A DNA stretch of 64,000 nucleotides. Source: Callorhinchus milii (Eukaryota). Each line of letters starts with the position of its first letter. Within the stretch, counting starts at the first letter, position 1. Location: positions 10,974,001 through 11,038,000 of the forward strand of contig NW_024704748.1 in the NCBI RefSeq assembly GCF_018977255.1, given 5' to 3'. Made by a program: the position numbers. Positions 15,001 through 45,000 of this stretch are shown one piece after another.

Positions 15001-18000
15001 ATCCAGACCTTAATGTGAAGCGCTTTGAGACGTCTTGAAGACGTGATAAGGTACTGTATCAAATGCAAGGATTATTATTAATAATGTCCATCAAACACGC
15101 TGACAGGACATCAGCGGACTGGGATTCTCAGCTAGAGGAGGAGAAGTAGATTTGGGTGTCATCCGCATACATATGGACGTTGACCCTACATCTGCTGATG
15201 ACATCACCGAGAGGGAGCATGCAAGCCAGAAATGTATCATCAAATCTGTGAGCGGCAGTGAGGGCAGAAATTGTGTTTAATGCAGTACGAGTGTACAGCA
15301 ACCTGTGCTGTCTTACAAGCGACAGCCAGGAGCAAAACCACAAAGCCCACCGGGCCATGTAACCAGTGGGGGTTGGTGTTTTATTCATCAATCTGACAGT
15401 CCCAACCTTCCATTTTCCGAGGAAATTATTCCTTCTAAAACCTCGTGTTCATTTCCCTTCAAATTCCACACTCACGCTCGCTCAGCCCTTCGCAATCATC
15501 GTGACAAAACATTTGTCCATTAACATCTCAGTCGTCTAGATGTACGCAGTCAGTACAGGTGCTAATAACTGAGAAACCATTTAGTGATTTTACACTGCGG
15601 CTGAATATTTCATGATGCTCTGTGTGTTTCACCATTCAGTCAATGGACCTCTGTCACTTCAATCTCTTCTGACTGCCTTGACTGGTGCTGAAAAGCTCCA
15701 CCAAGATAGCTATCTTTCACAAACTGTCACTCATCGCAGCCTGTCACTGGCAAACTCTGCCGAACACTGTTACTCACAGGGAATAACTGCGACATTTGTT
15801 GCACCGTAATGCTCTGTTCTGATGGATCTGAACAAATGCGTTGTGATTAATAGACCTAACATTTGCAGACTACAATTAGAACGGGGTATCCGATGACCTT
15901 CTGCAATCCATCAGAAGAGTGTTAATTTCATATAAAGAATGTTGGGCTGGCACTCGTTAGAACTTGTTATAGTGAAGGCTCAAACAGTTCTGTGCTTGGT
16001 GTTCAAGCTGCGTTTAGCAATTCCAATTTGATGCTGACTAGACAGCACTAGCAGGGATGACTATTCTCCCTCAGTCCCACTTCGCCAGGCAATGAAAGCA
16101 AGCTGCTCTTTGAAATGTTGAGCTCCCATCATGCAAACTGACAAAGGCATGCTTTTCAAAACCCACATCCAAACTGTTGATCATTACTTATTTACAATGG
16201 CCTTGAGGCACATCTGCCTGTAAAAACCATATTTGATACAATATATACCATTTTTTTCACCTTTGTGCAATAAGAACCCCTTAGGCTGCTTTAAACCAGC
16301 ACTTCATATTGCCCATAAAATGTACCTTGTAATTCCAAAATATGTAATATTTAAGGTATGATATATCTTCGGGAAACGAATTTCTGAAAGCCCGGGTGAT
16401 TCTCTGTTCAGTAATTCCACGTTTTGCTGAGGACTACAACTTGAGAAAGCTCCACATAGCACAGAAGACCTGTCATTCGACTACCCGAGGGCCACTAATA
16501 TAAAGGATTACCCTACAGCGGCAAAAGTTCGGCACAGCTTTGAAGCATGCCAAAAGAGTGCAACCCACTCCCCAGAATTATTACTGCGCAGAGATCAAAA
16601 GAGGTTGGTGCATATTTTACTTGGTAAACAGGGACCTTCTGTTCTTCTGGAAAAAAAAGGGTTTGGAGCTTCTGTAAACCCCAAGCAATTTTCTTGTACA
16701 ATTGTTTCATATGCTAAGTGGATGAAGCTGTTTACTTGTCAAACACCGAGCGCAGGTTAACCCGTGACACGGCAACAACCAAATGTTCCTCTCACTCATC
16801 ACCAGCTCATAAACTTCCCGTTACCTAACCCGCCAATTATTTAGCTCTCCCCCCACCCCCCGCCCACTCTCTCTCTCTTTGGAGTCAAAATCAATTAATG
16901 ACAATTTAATGCAAAAGGACAAGATAAAAGGAATGTAAAAATTTGGGTTCATTTTTCATTGTTACGATACATCTCACATATGGCCTCAAGTACAGAAAAC
17001 AGTACTCCAAGGGACTCGCAGACACAGGGAATAGCCTGAGGGAAGATAACCGTATGAGTCTTTCTGATTGGTTACTGCTGTCATTAGTGCCATTGCTGTT
17101 TAAGAAATACATGTGGACAGACTGAGGTGACAGCTGAGAGTTTAAAGCCTGCATTCTCTCTAACAGCTTTGCCTACCCTCTTTCATGACAGAAATTTTTC
17201 AGCTCTATCATTAACCGCTGACAGGCTGACAGAATAAATACTTCAGCCTTTAAGGATTTTTCTCGCTTGCTCCCTTTCTCTTCAGACAGAGAGTTCTTTA
17301 GCTGTCTTTTCTTACCTCATCAATTTGGGCGAACCGTTGGGTGAATTTCGCATGCCTCCGTTGCGCTGCTTTTTTTTGGGTGACAATGCTGATGGATGTT
17401 CATCTTCAACTGCAACTGCAAACATACGGAAGATGTGAGATTAGGAGCCATTTTCAGAAGGATATGAAATGGAAATTAAATATTTAAAAAAATGCATATT
17501 TAAACAGAAAGTGACTCATTATAAAAGTTAAAGATCTCCACTATATAGCAATGAACAGTTACTCGGGGAAAAGAAAAGAAAATCAAATGAGGACTAAGTA
17601 CGGGCTAACGTGTTAATCAAAAACAAACCAGTTCAAAACCCTAATGGCATGACTAAGATAATCTAGCACTCAAGATTCCTAAGCACTAAACACACACGCA
17701 CACACGATATCAATTAAAGGAAAGTGGAAAACATTTTTTAATCAAAACAGGACGCACAGGGAAGGGACAACAGTTTTAATTTGGGAGGTTGTGGGTGAAG
17801 GAACCATCTGCCCCACTCAGAAAGGGTAAATAACAAAATTGCAGACTTTGTACAGGTTAAATATCTAAAATACAACAGTAATTCTTTTTAAGTAGAAGTC
17901 AAACCACTCAGTTAAAGGAGGTGTCACTCTAGAGCATGCAGCATTAACGCACTATTTCTGGCTCACAACCTTCAATGTTGAACCAGCATTGACTAGGGGA

Positions 18001-42000: not shown

Positions 42001-45000
42001 TGGCAAAAAAAAACATTGCACAATAGGCAAGTTGCCCCAGCATTATCCGGGCACCGTAGCCGTAAAATCTTGCATTGCATGTTTTAATGCATTCAGGCAC
42101 AGTAGCAAAGTAACTCCCGGTAAGAAATTAAGAACATTACTTACGCCGTTTGCAGCCACACTTTTTAATCCTTTTGGGATCTGTGATGTCATCGTGACAC
42201 GCTTTGCAGTAGAAGAATGCCCTGCGGAAAGACGATATAAAAATGATGCTCGAAGTCTGACTCCAGCTATGTGAAGTGTTATTCAATGTAAAGGGTGCTA
42301 CATTAATGCAGGTTGTTATCCAGTTTTGCAATTACAGTGCAAGTTAAATAACCTTCTGCTGCCACTTTATCCGCATCTCTCAGCATTTTCAAGATCTGGA
42401 TAATATCCCCTTCTGAATATTTTCTGCAGCTAAACCAACCAGGTTTTCAGTCGAACCTTAAAATACAAGAGCAACTCTGTTGCGTTTGAATTTTTCAAAA
42501 CTGGTTTCAAAGGCCGGTCTCAAGACCTTTCTCTTCGACCATGCCTTCAGCTCCCCTCTCGACTCTCTACCCCCTCCTCGCTCCCTCCCCTCACTCTGAC
42601 CATTTCCCCCCCCTGCTCGCGTCCTGACCCAACTGTCCAGCGCCTTGGGACGTCCTCCCGACGTGAAAGGTGCTCTATAAATGAAATCTTGTTGTTGTTG
42701 TTCCTGAATTGCGTTCATCAAGGTACTGGTTGTTAGGTGGCAAGTTTTATATTTCAGACTCCCTGTTGCTTTATCGTCGTCTCCAACACCAATCTTTGAC
42801 CAAAACTCTAACATGGCCTAATGCACTAGTGTACTATTTCCATTCCCCACCCCAACTGTCCTTGTGGCGTCTCTTAGTGACAATTAGTAGTACTGGTGAC
42901 TTCGGTGCTCGAAATTGGTATTGGATCTCAGCCTTCTAGTTGAGAGTCCAAAACTCGGTCCCACACCTCATAATCTTTCATTGAGCAGCTATTTTTCACA
43001 CACTTGTTTAAAGATTCACTGCCAGATCTTTCCAGAAAATAGGTTAAAGATTTTTATTGTTCAATCACTGCATTAATAGCAATGACTGAGATTCATTCTC
43101 GTACAGGTTTGGATAACAGGGCATGAAAGCTTTCCCCCAAAAGGGCAGTATTTCATTCACTGCATTTAACATATGAAACAATTAAGTGAAAGTAGACAGG
43201 AATTGTCTCGTTATCAAGAATAATAATAATAATCCTTGCATTTGATATAGTGCTTTTCACGTCTTCTAGAATAGACTGTAAAGTGAATTAAATGTATAGT
43301 TGTGAGCAACATGCGGCAGCCAATTGCACATAGCAGTGTCCCACAAACAGTCGTGGATTGAAGTGACCAATTTATTATTGTTTTTTTTCTTGATGGATTA
43401 TTATCAGGAGTGTGGAGTAAGGAAATTTGCCCAAGGTTTCACCCTACCAGGAATCAAATCAAAGGGACCACCTACCTTTTTACTTCTTTGGCATCACTTG
43501 CAATGAAAAATCCCAACGTGCCTTCTTGAATCTTGACGTTGTTCCCAGGATTGATTAATATGCTACTCAGTAAAAAAACACAAAAAATACGTTCCCATTA
43601 GCTGCTGTTTGAGAGAAACTTCATCTCAATAGTGTAATAATCAAAGGGGAATGGTACAAGGATCTTTACTGAAAAGAAGTCACTCTCAAATGGATTGCAC
43701 TAACTCCTGATAAAATTCAACGGCTGAATACATTTCACAGATGACTGTGAATGATTCAATTGACGCCTGAAATGAAATGGATTATTGGATTCTTAATATT
43801 TAGATGCATGGTTAGCAAAATACCATCTGCTTGACAGCATCTCCCAAAATAAGTTCTCACTTTTCTCCAATTCTATAGCCTTCTGATAACAAAGCAGAAG
43901 TAAAAACCTTCTTCTGGATATTGGTAACTCCAAACTAAATACTGCTTCTAATTCAGGTATAGTTTTGATGCTTATTCCTGCAGATTTTCCATTATCTCTC
44001 TCCAAAACACACTTTCTATCTCCTTGCGACCTAAATTACCTCCTTCGTGTATTGAGGACACTCCCTCCCCATATCATGATATATTTTCCAACTGAGAAGG
44101 TTGGTGATCTCTTGACCTCAGGCATATTGTTTCTGAGCCAACCACAAGGAAATGTTTGCACATATTTCCTGGGTGTCCGTTCTCAAAATTGCCCTTCACA
44201 ACTATGTACGTGTGTTCTCTTATCCTGCCTGCTCTCATCACAGAAAAACACCCTCTTTTTCTGGGTTTATTTTCTTCAACTTATTCAACATTTTATATAC
44301 TTCTATCAGATCCTTTCTGAGATGTTTCTTTTTAAGACTGCAATAAACATCATGCTAAAAATCAGTTACTGTAGCCTGTACAATTCCCCAGTGATTGAAA
44401 CGTTATTTGCAACATAATTCATTAAATACTGTTTGAGCTATGTGCATAATGACACATAGCTTAAAGTACAAGGCAATACAAATCTAGATTATAACTAGTA
44501 CACAGCACAGCTATATGTTAGGTTCGGTAACCTGGCCCAAAGGAAAGAGATGGCTGATACACTGACGAGATTCACAACGCCCGAGTATGTTATCAGACTG
44601 CAGACTGATATCCTGCAATAACCCCAATTGTTCAGAATAAACATCCAGCTCATTCTTCTGGGCACTCTCAGTACTCTTAGTTGGACAAGATATTCAGCTT
44701 TCTGCTCACAAAGGAAAGAGGATAGAAAGCAAATGCACACTTAGGACATGGCATGTTCAAAAGAAAGAGTAAAATTGCTTCCAGGATTTAACTTCTTGCT
44801 CTTGATGGCTTTTAAGGCCATTATTTTTATTAGCCGAGAATAGAAGCCTTCCATTGGTTACCTGGTCTATTGCAAGATCGCTTCCAAATATAATGGTGAT
44901 TGATTTTATATCTGGACAAAATATTATTGCCCCGACTGAAGAAACTGAAGAATATACATTCCACTGCATTCCTGCAATGATCAAATAGCAATTTACTATT

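What the first reader, a model, noticed from the sequence alone, without database searches (positions are those of the whole stretch)
17410..42144. Expanded array of phase-1 cassette exons in the RCK1-RCK2 linker (site 2)
Seen: this 25-kb intron contains well-supported frame-preserving phase 1-1 units of 9, 174, 33 and 288 nt plus a +6-nt acceptor. Further candidates lie at 39082-39192, 25955-26026 and 21075-21143, with an orphan acceptor at 36686. Known: mammalian site 2 has IYF, STREX and a 29-aa exon; I did not find the 29-aa exon here. Inference: a larger, partly lineage-specific combinatorial toolkit for tuning BK. This may matter in cartilaginous fishes, where BK tunes electroreceptor oscillations.
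Basis: partly seen in the sequence, partly recalled or inferred. Interest (0 to 1): 0.65.

Follow-up and report, generated by a model that had tools for sequence, protein, structure and literature searches.

The report
Ancient BK channel splice-cassette array

Summary
The window is Callorhinchus milii KCNMA1 (BK alpha), on the minus strand. Every exon is 100% identical to the species' annotated protein. The intron 42144..17410 is splice site 2 (C2), in the RCK1-RCK2 linker.

IYF (40518-40510), STREX (37318-37145) and the +6 acceptor are already in annotated C. milii proteins.

The 33-nt unit (25593-25561) and the 288-nt unit (20695-20408) are in none of the C. milii proteins I could see. Both are orthologues of exons annotated in other vertebrates: ray-finned fishes for the first, and ray-finned fishes, a newt and birds for the second.

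The 288-nt exon has two invariant motifs.

The three further candidates and the orphan acceptor cannot be told apart from 2020 chance units, and no search supported them.

The array is therefore ancestral, not lineage-specific. Nothing here links it to electroreception. Whether C. milii splices the two new exons is inferred, not shown.

The parts
42145..42221 (-). Constitutive exon upstream of splice site 2 (…[21 protein letters not shown]); it ends in phase 1.
   Evidence: Sequence read. 100% identical to C. milii P0126 and P0127.
40510..40518 (-). 9-nt 'IYF' microexon (TGATCTATT). It reads L-I-Y-F before the constitutive exon and L-I-Y-S before STREX.
   Evidence: Present in C. milii P0126 as KRLIYSKISIYK. 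Present in 80 of 324 stored BK proteins. Weak acceptor, strong donor gtgagt.
40426..40431 (-). TGCATG, 79 nt downstream of the IYF microexon. This is a Rbfox-type motif; the motif's meaning is recalled.
   Evidence: The window has 37 TGCATG on both strands against 56 expected, so being this close to the exon is only suggestive.
37145..37318 (-). 174-nt STREX exon (58 aa with boundary codons). It keeps the tandem cysteines of the CCFDC motif.
   Evidence: 100% identical to C. milii P0126 and 91-93% to bowfin, catshark and birds. BK chains that include this insert are in the PDB: 8z3s, 9jo3, 6nd0.
37321..37331 (-). CaRRE1-like element AACATGATTAT at -13..-3 of the STREX 3' splice site. It matches 10 of 11 positions of CACAUNRUUAU.
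   Evidence: [quoted passage not shown] The window has 15 matches with one mismatch or fewer (11.7 expected), so only the position is informative.
25561..25593 (-). 33-nt microexon encoding (S)KYNYNGFITS(I). It is not in the three C. milii proteins seen.
   Evidence: Best splice sites of all 2020 units. Best BLOSUM62 match in all six frames of the window for 6 of 6 annotated fish variants: scores 33-43 against 22-28 for the runner-up. In bowfin, sturgeon, cod and mandarin fish the exon lies between STREX and the long exon or the constitutive exon.
20408..20695 (-). 288-nt exon (96 aa with boundary codons) carrying the invariant motifs LVNNRKGSL and RLxRAxSLPVKYRxH. It is the long form of the e22-type exon.
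   Evidence: A related unnamed species is 86 of 95 identical in the exon, against 31 of 104 in the upstream flank. Splice rank 16 of 2020.
20277..20407 (-). Conserved intronic block just downstream of the 288-nt exon, including TGCATG at 20362-20357 (+46).
   Evidence: 32 of 44 aligned codons are identical to the unnamed related ORF P0004 despite one stop. Gar isoforms read into the equivalent stretch.
17410..17415 (-). The 6 nt (TTGCAG) that are added when the upstream member of the tandem acceptor TTGCAG|TTGCAG is used. They insert Ala-Val.
   Evidence: Used in C. milii P0126 (RAFAVEDE) and P0125, and not used in P0127 (KRLEDE). Found in 2 of 309 anchored proteins, both from C. milii.
17316..17409 (-). 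Constitutive exon downstream of site 2: (L)[31 protein letters not shown].
39082..39192 (-).
   Evidence: Rank 403 of 2020. No match to annotated inserts. Its ORF hit only a serine-rich repeat protein. No Pfam family.
25955..26026 (-).
   Evidence: Rank 541 of 2020, with a purine-rich acceptor. No match. No Pfam family.
21075..21143 (-). It has a strong donor and a weak acceptor, and no homology.
   Evidence: Rank 48 of 2020. No match. Too short (23 aa) for the protein searches.

Best explanation
This is the alternative-splicing hotspot called site 2 or C2 of the BK channel gene KCNMA1, in the elephant shark Callorhinchus milii. It lies in the DNA that encodes the disordered linker between the two calcium-sensing RCK domains.

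**What the intron holds.** Four cassette exons, all in phase 1-1, so any subset can be included without changing the frame:
- the 3-aa IYF microexon;
- the 58-aa cysteine-rich STREX exon;
- an 11-aa microexon (KYNYNGFITS);
- a 96-aa exon.

The downstream constitutive exon also has two acceptors 6 nt apart, which adds or omits Ala-Val. In principle this gives up to 32 linker versions.

**Origin.** The array is ancestral to jawed vertebrates.
- STREX and IYF are shared with all groups sampled.
- The 11-aa exon is shared with ray-finned fishes.
- The 96-aa exon is shared with ray-finned fishes, a newt and birds.
- Mammals most likely keep only the first 29 codons of the 96-aa exon, as 'e22'.

**How each module most likely works.**
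- STREX adds a palmitoylated membrane anchor and a PKA switch. This is known from mammals. Its 3' splice site carries a CaMKIV-responsive silencer-like element.
- The 96-aa exon adds a disordered stretch with two invariant short motifs. RKGS is a basophilic kinase site. RxxSLP is a kinase site that also fits the 14-3-3-type pattern. These are most likely phospho-dependent regulatory or docking sites. This step is inference.
- A conserved TGCATG just downstream suggests Rbfox-type tissue control. This step is also inference.
For: **Identity of the gene.** All nine exon matches in the window are 100% identical to C. milii P0126 within exon bounds.

**Features already annotated in C. milii.** IYF, STREX and the +6 acceptor are in annotated C. 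milii proteins, with exactly the junction residues that phase 1-1 predicts.

**The 288-nt exon.**
- Search with the exon alone gave 197 proteins at E<=0.01 among 382 candidates. All named hits among the 120 listed are BK alpha isoforms of birds, a newt, sturgeon, gar, tarpon and teleosts. In the 12 proteins whose sequences I read, and in every stored protein where both flanking anchors were found, the match lies between CGCKR and EDE.
- 22 of 118 alignment columns are invariant in 11 sequences, in two blocks. The same 22 positions are invariant in 15 sequences.
- Against an unnamed related ORF, the exon is 86/95 identical with no gaps or stops. The upstream flank is 31/104 identical with 20 gap columns and 5 stops.

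**The 33-nt exon.**
- Best splice sites of the 2020 units.
- Top six-frame match for 6 of 6 annotated variants.
- Same length, phase and order as in bowfin, sturgeon, cod and mandarin fish.

**Combinatorial use elsewhere.** One mandarin-fish isoform (P0119) carries IY, STREX, the 11-aa exon, a teleost exon and the long exon together.

**Mechanism.**
- STREX palmitoylation and the PKA switch: passages of PMC4122160.
- CaRRE consensus: passage of PMC1790950.
- The AlphaFold2 model of the 96-aa exon, built from 15 sequences, has mean pLDDT 55 and no secondary structure. There is no Pfam family and no PDB relative.
Against: - There are no transcript data for C. milii here, so inclusion of the 33-nt and 288-nt exons in this species is inferred from intact frames, splice sites and conservation.
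- Neither exon is in the three C. milii proteins I saw. No C. milii protein appeared, where an identical exon would have ranked first. The other 11 members of the P0126 cluster could not be listed.
- C. milii evolves slowly, so conservation alone is weaker evidence of use than in other lineages.
- The donor of the 288-nt exon is mediocre (2.7 on my matrix), and several internal GTs score higher.
- The link to mammalian e22 rests on an alignment by eye with a sequence printed in a paper.
- The kinase and 14-3-3 readings of the motifs, and the Rbfox reading of TGCATG, rest on recalled consensus patterns. TGCATG is in fact under-represented, not enriched, in the window.
- The structure model used a shallow alignment, so low confidence is only weak evidence of disorder.
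Confidence: 0.85

Rival explanations
1. Cartilaginous fishes have an expanded, partly lineage-specific set of site-2 cassettes. It includes 39192-39082, 26026-25955, 21143-21075 and an exon starting at 36686, and it is used to tune BK in electroreceptors.
For: - The units exist as open AG..GT phase 1-1 stretches.
- 21143-21075 has a strong donor and ranks 48 of 2020.
- None of them overlaps a repeat that recurs within the window.
- Other lineages do have private site-2 cassettes: a 51-aa exon in some birds and a 27-aa exon in teleosts.
Against: - 2020 such units occur by chance. Two of the three candidates rank 403 and 541.
- None matches any of 44 distinct annotated inserts. The only outside hits at E<=0.01 are on the opposite strand, carry stops, or vanish with composition correction.
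- The only searchable candidate hit a low-complexity repeat protein.
- The catshark isoform seen has only IY and STREX.
- Skate ampulla clones lack STREX (passages).
Confidence: 0.06
2. The 33-nt and 288-nt blocks are relics. They were exons in the gnathostome ancestor and are still recognisable in this slowly evolving genome, but C. milii no longer splices them in.
For: They are absent from the three C. milii proteins seen and from every C. milii entry that could have found. The donor of the 288-nt unit is weak.
Against: - Both keep open frames, AG/GT borders and the invariant motifs.
- The 33-nt unit has the best splice sites in the intron.
- Between two related species the exon is 91% identical and the upstream flank 30% identical with stops. 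That is the pattern of continuing protein-level constraint.
- Small or tissue-restricted exons are often missed by automatic annotation (general knowledge).
Confidence: 0.08
3. The conserved 288-nt block is a non-coding element, such as an intronic enhancer or an RNA structure, and is not a coding exon.
For: Conservation continues about 130 nt past the donor into sequence that contains a stop.
Against: - In birds, a newt and many fishes the same sequence is annotated as coding, in frame, between the same two exons.
- Differences between species keep the frame: there are no gaps in the exon against 20 gap columns upstream.
- Rfam finds nothing there.
Confidence: 0.01

Closest known systems
Mammalian KCNMA1 splice site C2 (site 2): IYF, STREX and the 29-aa e22 exon
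   Same: - Same gene and same intron, between ...KKCGCKR and (L)EDE..PS..SPKKKQ.
- Same phase 1-1 logic.
- IYF and STREX are clear orthologues.
- A CaRRE-like element sits at the STREX 3' splice site, as described for the mammalian exon.
   Different: - The exon in the e22 position is 96 aa here, not 29 aa, and it carries two motifs that the rat sequence printed in PMC3393747 lacks.
- There is an additional 11-aa exon.
- There is a tandem acceptor that adds Ala-Val.
Site-2 isoforms annotated in ray-finned fishes (Siniperca chuatsi X2 P0119, Amia P0245, sturgeon P0006, gar P0102, Gadus P0138)
   Same: - Same order of cassettes: IY, STREX, 11-aa exon, long exon.
- Same junction residues.
- 11-aa exon pattern K..[YF]NG[YF][IV].S.
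- Long-exon motifs identical.
   Different: - Teleosts have a further 27-aa cassette (…DGATTPGNSG…) between the 11-aa exon and the long exon. It has no counterpart in the window.
- The teleost long exon is about 20 aa longer.
- No fish protein seen uses a +6 acceptor.
Bird KCNMA1 isoforms with the 97-aa insert (for example Gallus X4 P0012)
   Same: - The long exon lies at the same place.
- 63% identity over 67% of the query.
- Both invariant motifs are present.
   Different: - Some birds have a 51-aa cassette upstream of IYF, which is not found in the window.
- No bird protein seen carries the 11-aa exon.
Annotated C. milii BK proteins (P0125, P0126, P0127)
   Same: 100% identity on all exons in the window. 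They already include the zero form, IY, STREX and the +6 acceptor.
   Different: None of the three carries the 33-nt or the 288-nt exon.

Membership tests
KCNMA1 (BK alpha subunit) gene of Callorhinchus milii | Exon translations identical to the species' BK alpha protein, in gene order. | tested here: met
   tblastn of P0126 against the window gave nine exon matches, each 100% identical within exon bounds and collinear on the minus strand. Queries from a constitutive exon and from the STREX exon were each 100% identical to C. milii entries.
STREX exon | 58-aa cysteine-rich insert at site C2 with the tandem palmitoylated cysteines. | tested here: met
   The 174-nt unit in phase 1-1 encodes …KRMKLACCFDCGGCERDCAC…. 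It is 91-100% identical to annotated STREX isoforms. The role of the tandem cysteines comes from passages of PMC4122160.
STREX exon | CaMKIV-responsive element CACAUNRUUAU in the 3' splice site. | tested here: inconclusive
   AACATGATTAT at -13..-3 matches 10 of 11 positions; the first C of the CACA core is A. Read-through ORFs of an unnamed species and of Varanus translate the same spot as HMVIA and PMVIA, against NMIIA here. Function was not tested.
IYF microexon (STREX-2 component) | 9-nt exon upstream of STREX that adds I-Y-F or I-Y-S. | tested here: met
   P0126 reads KRLIYSKISIYK. The chick STREX-2 description comes from passages of PMC2803478.
e22-type exon (mammalian 29-aa insert at C2) | A cassette downstream of STREX, in phase 1-1, joined to the EDE… exon. 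| tested here: met
   Position and phase.
e22-type exon (mammalian 29-aa insert at C2) | Sequence similarity to mammalian e22. | tested here: inconclusive
   Comparison by eye only. Rat e22 (PMC3393747 Table 1) shares about 8 of its first 20 residues with the start of the chicken long exon, and also its ending P-x-P-V. The C. milii N-terminal third is the least conserved part. I computed no alignment, because a sequence taken from a paper is not accepted in a call.
e22-type exon (mammalian 29-aa insert at C2) | Length of 29 aa. | tested here: not met
   The exon is 96 aa here and 90-117 aa in the other non-mammals. No frame-keeping donor lies at the equivalent of the mammalian exon end.
11-aa site-2 microexon of ray-finned fishes | A 33-nt phase 1-1 exon between STREX and the long exon that encodes K..[YF]NG[YF][IV].S. 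| tested here: met
   17 stored proteins of about 8 genera carry it.
Tandem alternative acceptor | Two AGs a few nucleotides apart, both used, and frame-preserving. | tested here: met
   TTGCAG|TTGCAG. Both products are annotated in C. milii. The spacing is 6 nt, so this is not the classic 3-nt NAGNAG.

The most novel reading that the evidence does not exclude
The 288-nt exon is the full-length ancestral form of mammalian e22. It would be a roughly 96-aa disordered module, at least as old as jawed vertebrates, whose two invariant motifs (LVNNRKGSL and RLxRAxSLPVKYRxH) form a phosphorylation or 14-3-3-type control point on the BK gating ring. On this reading, mammals truncated it and the BK literature has not characterised it. 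Four motif strings taken from the 96-aa and 11-aa exons occur in none of the 8.4 million open papers searched. Alongside it, the 11-aa YNG microexon would be a second uncharacterised ancestral module.
Probability: 0.4. Interest if true: 0.6.

Novelty: new member of a known kind. Interest (0 to 1): 0.4.

Why it matters
BK channel diversity is largely made at this one splice site, and nearly all functional work uses the mammalian set: zero, IYF, STREX and e22.

Two further cassettes, one with invariant motifs, date back to the common ancestor of chimaeras and bony vertebrates. This means the mammalian repertoire is a reduced one. It also gives two defined, testable modules for anyone studying BK tuning in hair cells, muscle or neurons of non-mammals.

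For genome annotation, it adds two missing alternative exons to the C. milii gene model. It does not show a cartilaginous-fish innovation, and it gives no link to electroreception.

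Tried and rejected
- **Splice-site scoring.** I used a position-weight matrix with recalled, approximate frequencies. It cannot decide alone: the real IYF and STREX exons rank only 135 and 347 of 2020. An unsupported 60-nt unit (28547-28488) ranks 2.
- **tblastn of seven insert regions (six inserts and a sturgeon segment), then 44 inserts, against the window.** Nothing was found beyond STREX, the 11-aa exon and the long exon. A plus-strand hit at 27489-27650 (E=0.001) contains stops and falls to E=1.8 with composition correction.
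- **Bird 51-aa and teleost 27-aa cassettes.** Neither was found in the window.
- **Representative-library search of the 39235-39071 ORF.** It gave one hit, a serine-rich repeat protein, which I judge compositional.
- **Pfam on the cassettes and the candidate ORFs.** Nothing reached threshold.
- **PDB search with the 96-aa exon.** The best hit was only E=0.49.
- **Within-window repeat search.** No cassette or candidate overlaps a repeat. Only repeats with two or more copies in the window can be seen this way.
- **12-nt SRKR-type microexon at the neighbouring site C1.** A quick scan found none, but my intron bounds were a few bases off, so this is not a result.
- **Literature.** Open-access searches found no description of the long exon or the 11-aa exon by sequence. 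The main primary paper on mouse C2 variants is not held. The review on BK splice evolution appeared only in other papers' reference lists. Two further searches were uninformative.
- **Calls that gave no answer.** A 30-aa exon query was too short.
- **Not used or not available.**
  - Genome contigs holds only bacteria and archaea and was not used.
  - Paper supplements are closed and might hold exon tables that bear on novelty.
  - I did not build or search a joined (spliced) model; every search used a single exon in frame.

Full report
**What the window is.** [quoted passage not shown] A 70-aa constitutive exon (9169-8960) and the STREX exon are each 100% identical to Callorhinchus milii entries. 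tblastn of the C. milii protein P0126 finds nine collinear exon matches in the window, each 100% identical within exon bounds. The window is therefore elephant-shark KCNMA1. It is not human, and it has no N runs. All searches used single exons in frame. I did not build or search a joined spliced model.

**Checking the observation.** The intron runs from 42144 to 17410, is 24,735 nt long, begins GTAAGT and ends TTGCAG|TTGCAG. A mechanical listing finds 2020 stretches that follow an AG, precede a GT, have a length divisible by three and stay open in phase 1.
- 40518-40510, 9 nt;
- 37318-37145, 174 nt;
- 25593-25561, 33 nt;
- 20695-20408, 288 nt.

On a rough splice-site matrix with frequencies I recalled, these rank 135, 347, 1 and 16 of 2020. 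The three further candidates rank 403, 541 and 48. The undoubtedly real IYF and STREX exons rank poorly, so this score can neither confirm nor exclude an exon.

**What is already annotated in this species.** Three C. milii proteins were retrieved.
- P0127 joins KR-L-EDE, the zero form.
- P0126 reads KR-L-IY-S-KISIYK…SLRA-F-AV-EDE. That is the 9-nt exon, STREX and the upstream member of the tandem acceptor.
- P0125 also uses the upstream acceptor.

The junction residues are exactly those predicted by phase 1-1. IYF, STREX and the +6 acceptor are therefore confirmed, and they are not new. Among 309 stored BK proteins carrying the downstream anchor, only these two C. milii entries have the Ala-Val insertion. 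The sample is biased towards birds, turtles and fishes.

**The 288-nt exon.**
- *Search result.* Searched alone (95 aa in frame, longer proteins allowed), it gave 197 proteins at E<=0.01 among 382 candidates, of which 120 were listed.
  - Every named hit is a BK alpha isoform, from many birds, a newt, a sturgeon, gar, tarpon and teleosts.
  - In the 12 proteins whose sequences I read, and in every stored protein where both flanking anchors were found, the match lies between CGCKR and EDE.
- *Absence from cartilaginous fishes.* No named cartilaginous-fish protein was listed. An identical C. milii entry would have ranked first, so the exon is missing from that species' proteins in the collection.
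- *Conserved motifs.* An alignment of 11 sequences has 22 invariant columns of 118, in two blocks: LVNNRKGSL and RLxRAxSLPVKYRxH. The same 22 positions are invariant in 15 sequences.
- *Constraint between related species.* The top hit, P0004, is an unnamed ORF that reads straight through the exon and both flanks, so it is unspliced DNA of a related species. Compared with the window:
  - the exon is 86 of 95 identical, with no gaps or stops;
  - the upstream flank is 31 of 104 identical, with 20 gap columns and 5 stops;
  - the downstream flank is 32 of 44 identical, with one stop.
- *Reading.* This is the pattern of a coding exon under constraint, followed by a conserved intronic element. That element contains TGCATG at +46. 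Gar isoforms that use a later donor translate the same flank similarly.

**Relation to the mammalian 29-aa exon.** PMC3393747 (Table 1, read as a passage) prints rat e22 followed by 29 intron-derived residues.
- By eye, the first 20 residues of rat e22 share about 8 identities with the start of the chicken long exon (VKNAARSSYPKSSYQFKNTT…).
- Rat e22 ends P-K-P-V where chicken has P-E-P-V, immediately before LVNNRKGSL.

I therefore think mammalian e22 is the first third of this older exon, cut short by a newer donor. I could not compute the alignment, because sequence from a paper is not accepted in a call. The C. milii N-terminal third is the most diverged part, so this link is probable rather than shown.

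**The 33-nt exon.** It encodes (S)KYNYNGFITS(I) and has the best acceptor-plus-donor score in the intron.
- Seventeen stored proteins carry a 10-residue insert K..[YF]NG[YF][IV].[SP] directly after STREX or IY, and before the long exon or EDE. They come from Siniperca, Synchiropus, Chaenocephalus, Gadus, Lepidogalaxias, Tachysurus, Amia and Acipenser.
- For each of the six distinct variants, the best ungapped BLOSUM62 match in all six frames of the 64-kb window is 25591-25562. Scores are 33-43, against 22-28 for the runner-up.
- The exon is too short for the database searches, so I cannot say whether any shark or ray annotation has it. The one catshark isoform seen has only IY and STREX.

**The further candidates.**
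- *Homology.* None of 39192-39082, 26026-25955, 21143-21075 or the acceptor at 36686 matches any of the 44 distinct annotated site-2 inserts I collected. Of 147 HSPs at E<=1, 100 lie outside the three real exons. The best of those is on the opposite strand, has stops, and drops to E=1.8 with composition correction.
- *Cassettes private to other lineages.* The bird 51-aa cassette and the teleost 27-aa cassette also have no counterpart in the window.
- *Direct search.* The ORF around 39192-39082, run against 1.8 billion representative proteins, hit only a serine-rich repeat protein.
- *Pfam.* Nothing was found above threshold.
- *Repeats.* None of the candidates lies in a repeat that recurs within the window.
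- *What stays open.* 21143-21075 (strong donor) and an unlisted unit 28547-28488 (rank 2) remain formally open, but nothing supports them.

**How it most likely works.** All cassettes are in phase 1-1, so any subset keeps the frame. With the two acceptors, up to 32 linkers are possible. A mandarin-fish isoform carrying IY, STREX, the 11-aa exon, a teleost exon and the long exon shows that stacking is at least annotated.
- *STREX.* Its mechanism is known from mammals: palmitoylated tandem cysteines, a PKA switch and a leftward shift of activation (passages of PMC4122160). The motif CCFDC is kept here.
- *STREX splicing control.* The 3' splice site carries AACATGATTAT at -13..-3. [quoted passage not shown] Such near-matches are common (15 in the window, 11.7 expected), so only the position is telling.
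- *The 96-aa exon.* It has no Pfam family and no PDB relative. Its AlphaFold2 model has mean pLDDT 55 and no secondary structure (shallow alignment). I read it as a disordered insert whose invariant RKGS and RxxSLP motifs are phosphorylation or 14-3-3-type sites. That reading rests on recalled consensus patterns and is untested.

**Comparison and verdict.** The array is the known C2/site-2 hotspot. What the window adds is two alternative exons missing from the C. milii proteins I could see. It also shows that both exons, like IYF and STREX, predate the split of cartilaginous and bony vertebrates. 'Expanded and partly lineage-specific' is therefore the wrong reading; 'ancestral, and reduced in mammals' fits better.

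The electroreceptor idea has no support here. Passages of bioRxiv 10.1101/274449 say that both published skate ampulla clones lack STREX.

Four motif strings taken from the two new exons occur in none of the open papers searched. The key subscription papers and all supplements were not visible, so I do not claim the exons are undescribed.

The other members of the C. milii protein cluster could not be listed. No transcript evidence for this species was available.

Noticed in passing
window 21904-22210, 52043-52367, 57478-57755, and also 628-808, 7922-8025, 19758-19893, 30571-30772: An interspersed repeat family with up to about 10 copies in the window. Three copies carry tRNA-like heads that pass the Rfam tRNA threshold (22137-22208, 52293-52364, 57446-57502), so this is probably a tRNA-derived SINE.
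   Followed up: partly
window 13726-13855, and the 12-16 kb region: A purine-rich 46-nt tandem repeat of 2.8 copies, inside a stretch with raised G+C (0.47-0.50) and strong GC skew. The 50-52 kb region shows a similar skew.
   Followed up: no
window 28488-28547 (-): A 60-nt phase 1-1 unit with the second-best summed splice-site score of the 2020 units (acceptor 8.2, donor 7.2). It has no homology to any annotated insert.
   Followed up: partly
window about 8945-8960 (-), end of the exon starting at 9169: C. milii reads …[14 protein letters not shown] where other vertebrates read …NFPKVSILPGTPLS. The annotated C. milii proteins agree with the window.
   Followed up: no
Protein P0125 (C. milii, UniProt-derived), relative to window exons 43561-43475 and 42221-42145: This model joins …GTLGFFIA directly to IAVEDE…. 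It skips the end of one exon and the whole CKACH-containing exon. It could be a real skipping isoform or a modelling artefact.
   Followed up: no
Related proteins P0086, P0249, P0273 (birds) and P0116-P0119, P0108, P0122 (teleosts): Other lineages have private site-2 cassettes. Some birds have a 51-aa exon upstream of IYF. Teleosts have a 27-aa exon with its own 3-nt alternative acceptor, between the 11-aa exon and the long exon.
   Followed up: partly
Gar proteins P0099 and P0101, against window 20380-20407 (-): Gar uses an alternative donor 27 nt further downstream of the long exon. The read-through residues (CMFPSAGCT) resemble the window's translated flank (CRFPLSCT), but the window has no GT at the matching position.
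   Followed up: partly
window 49771-43562 (-), neighbouring splice site C1: Other species insert SRKR here. C. milii P0125 and P0126 differ by one serine at this junction (RESSS against RESS), which hints at a tandem splice site. My quick scan for a 12-nt SRKR exon used slightly wrong bounds and is not a result.
   Followed up: no
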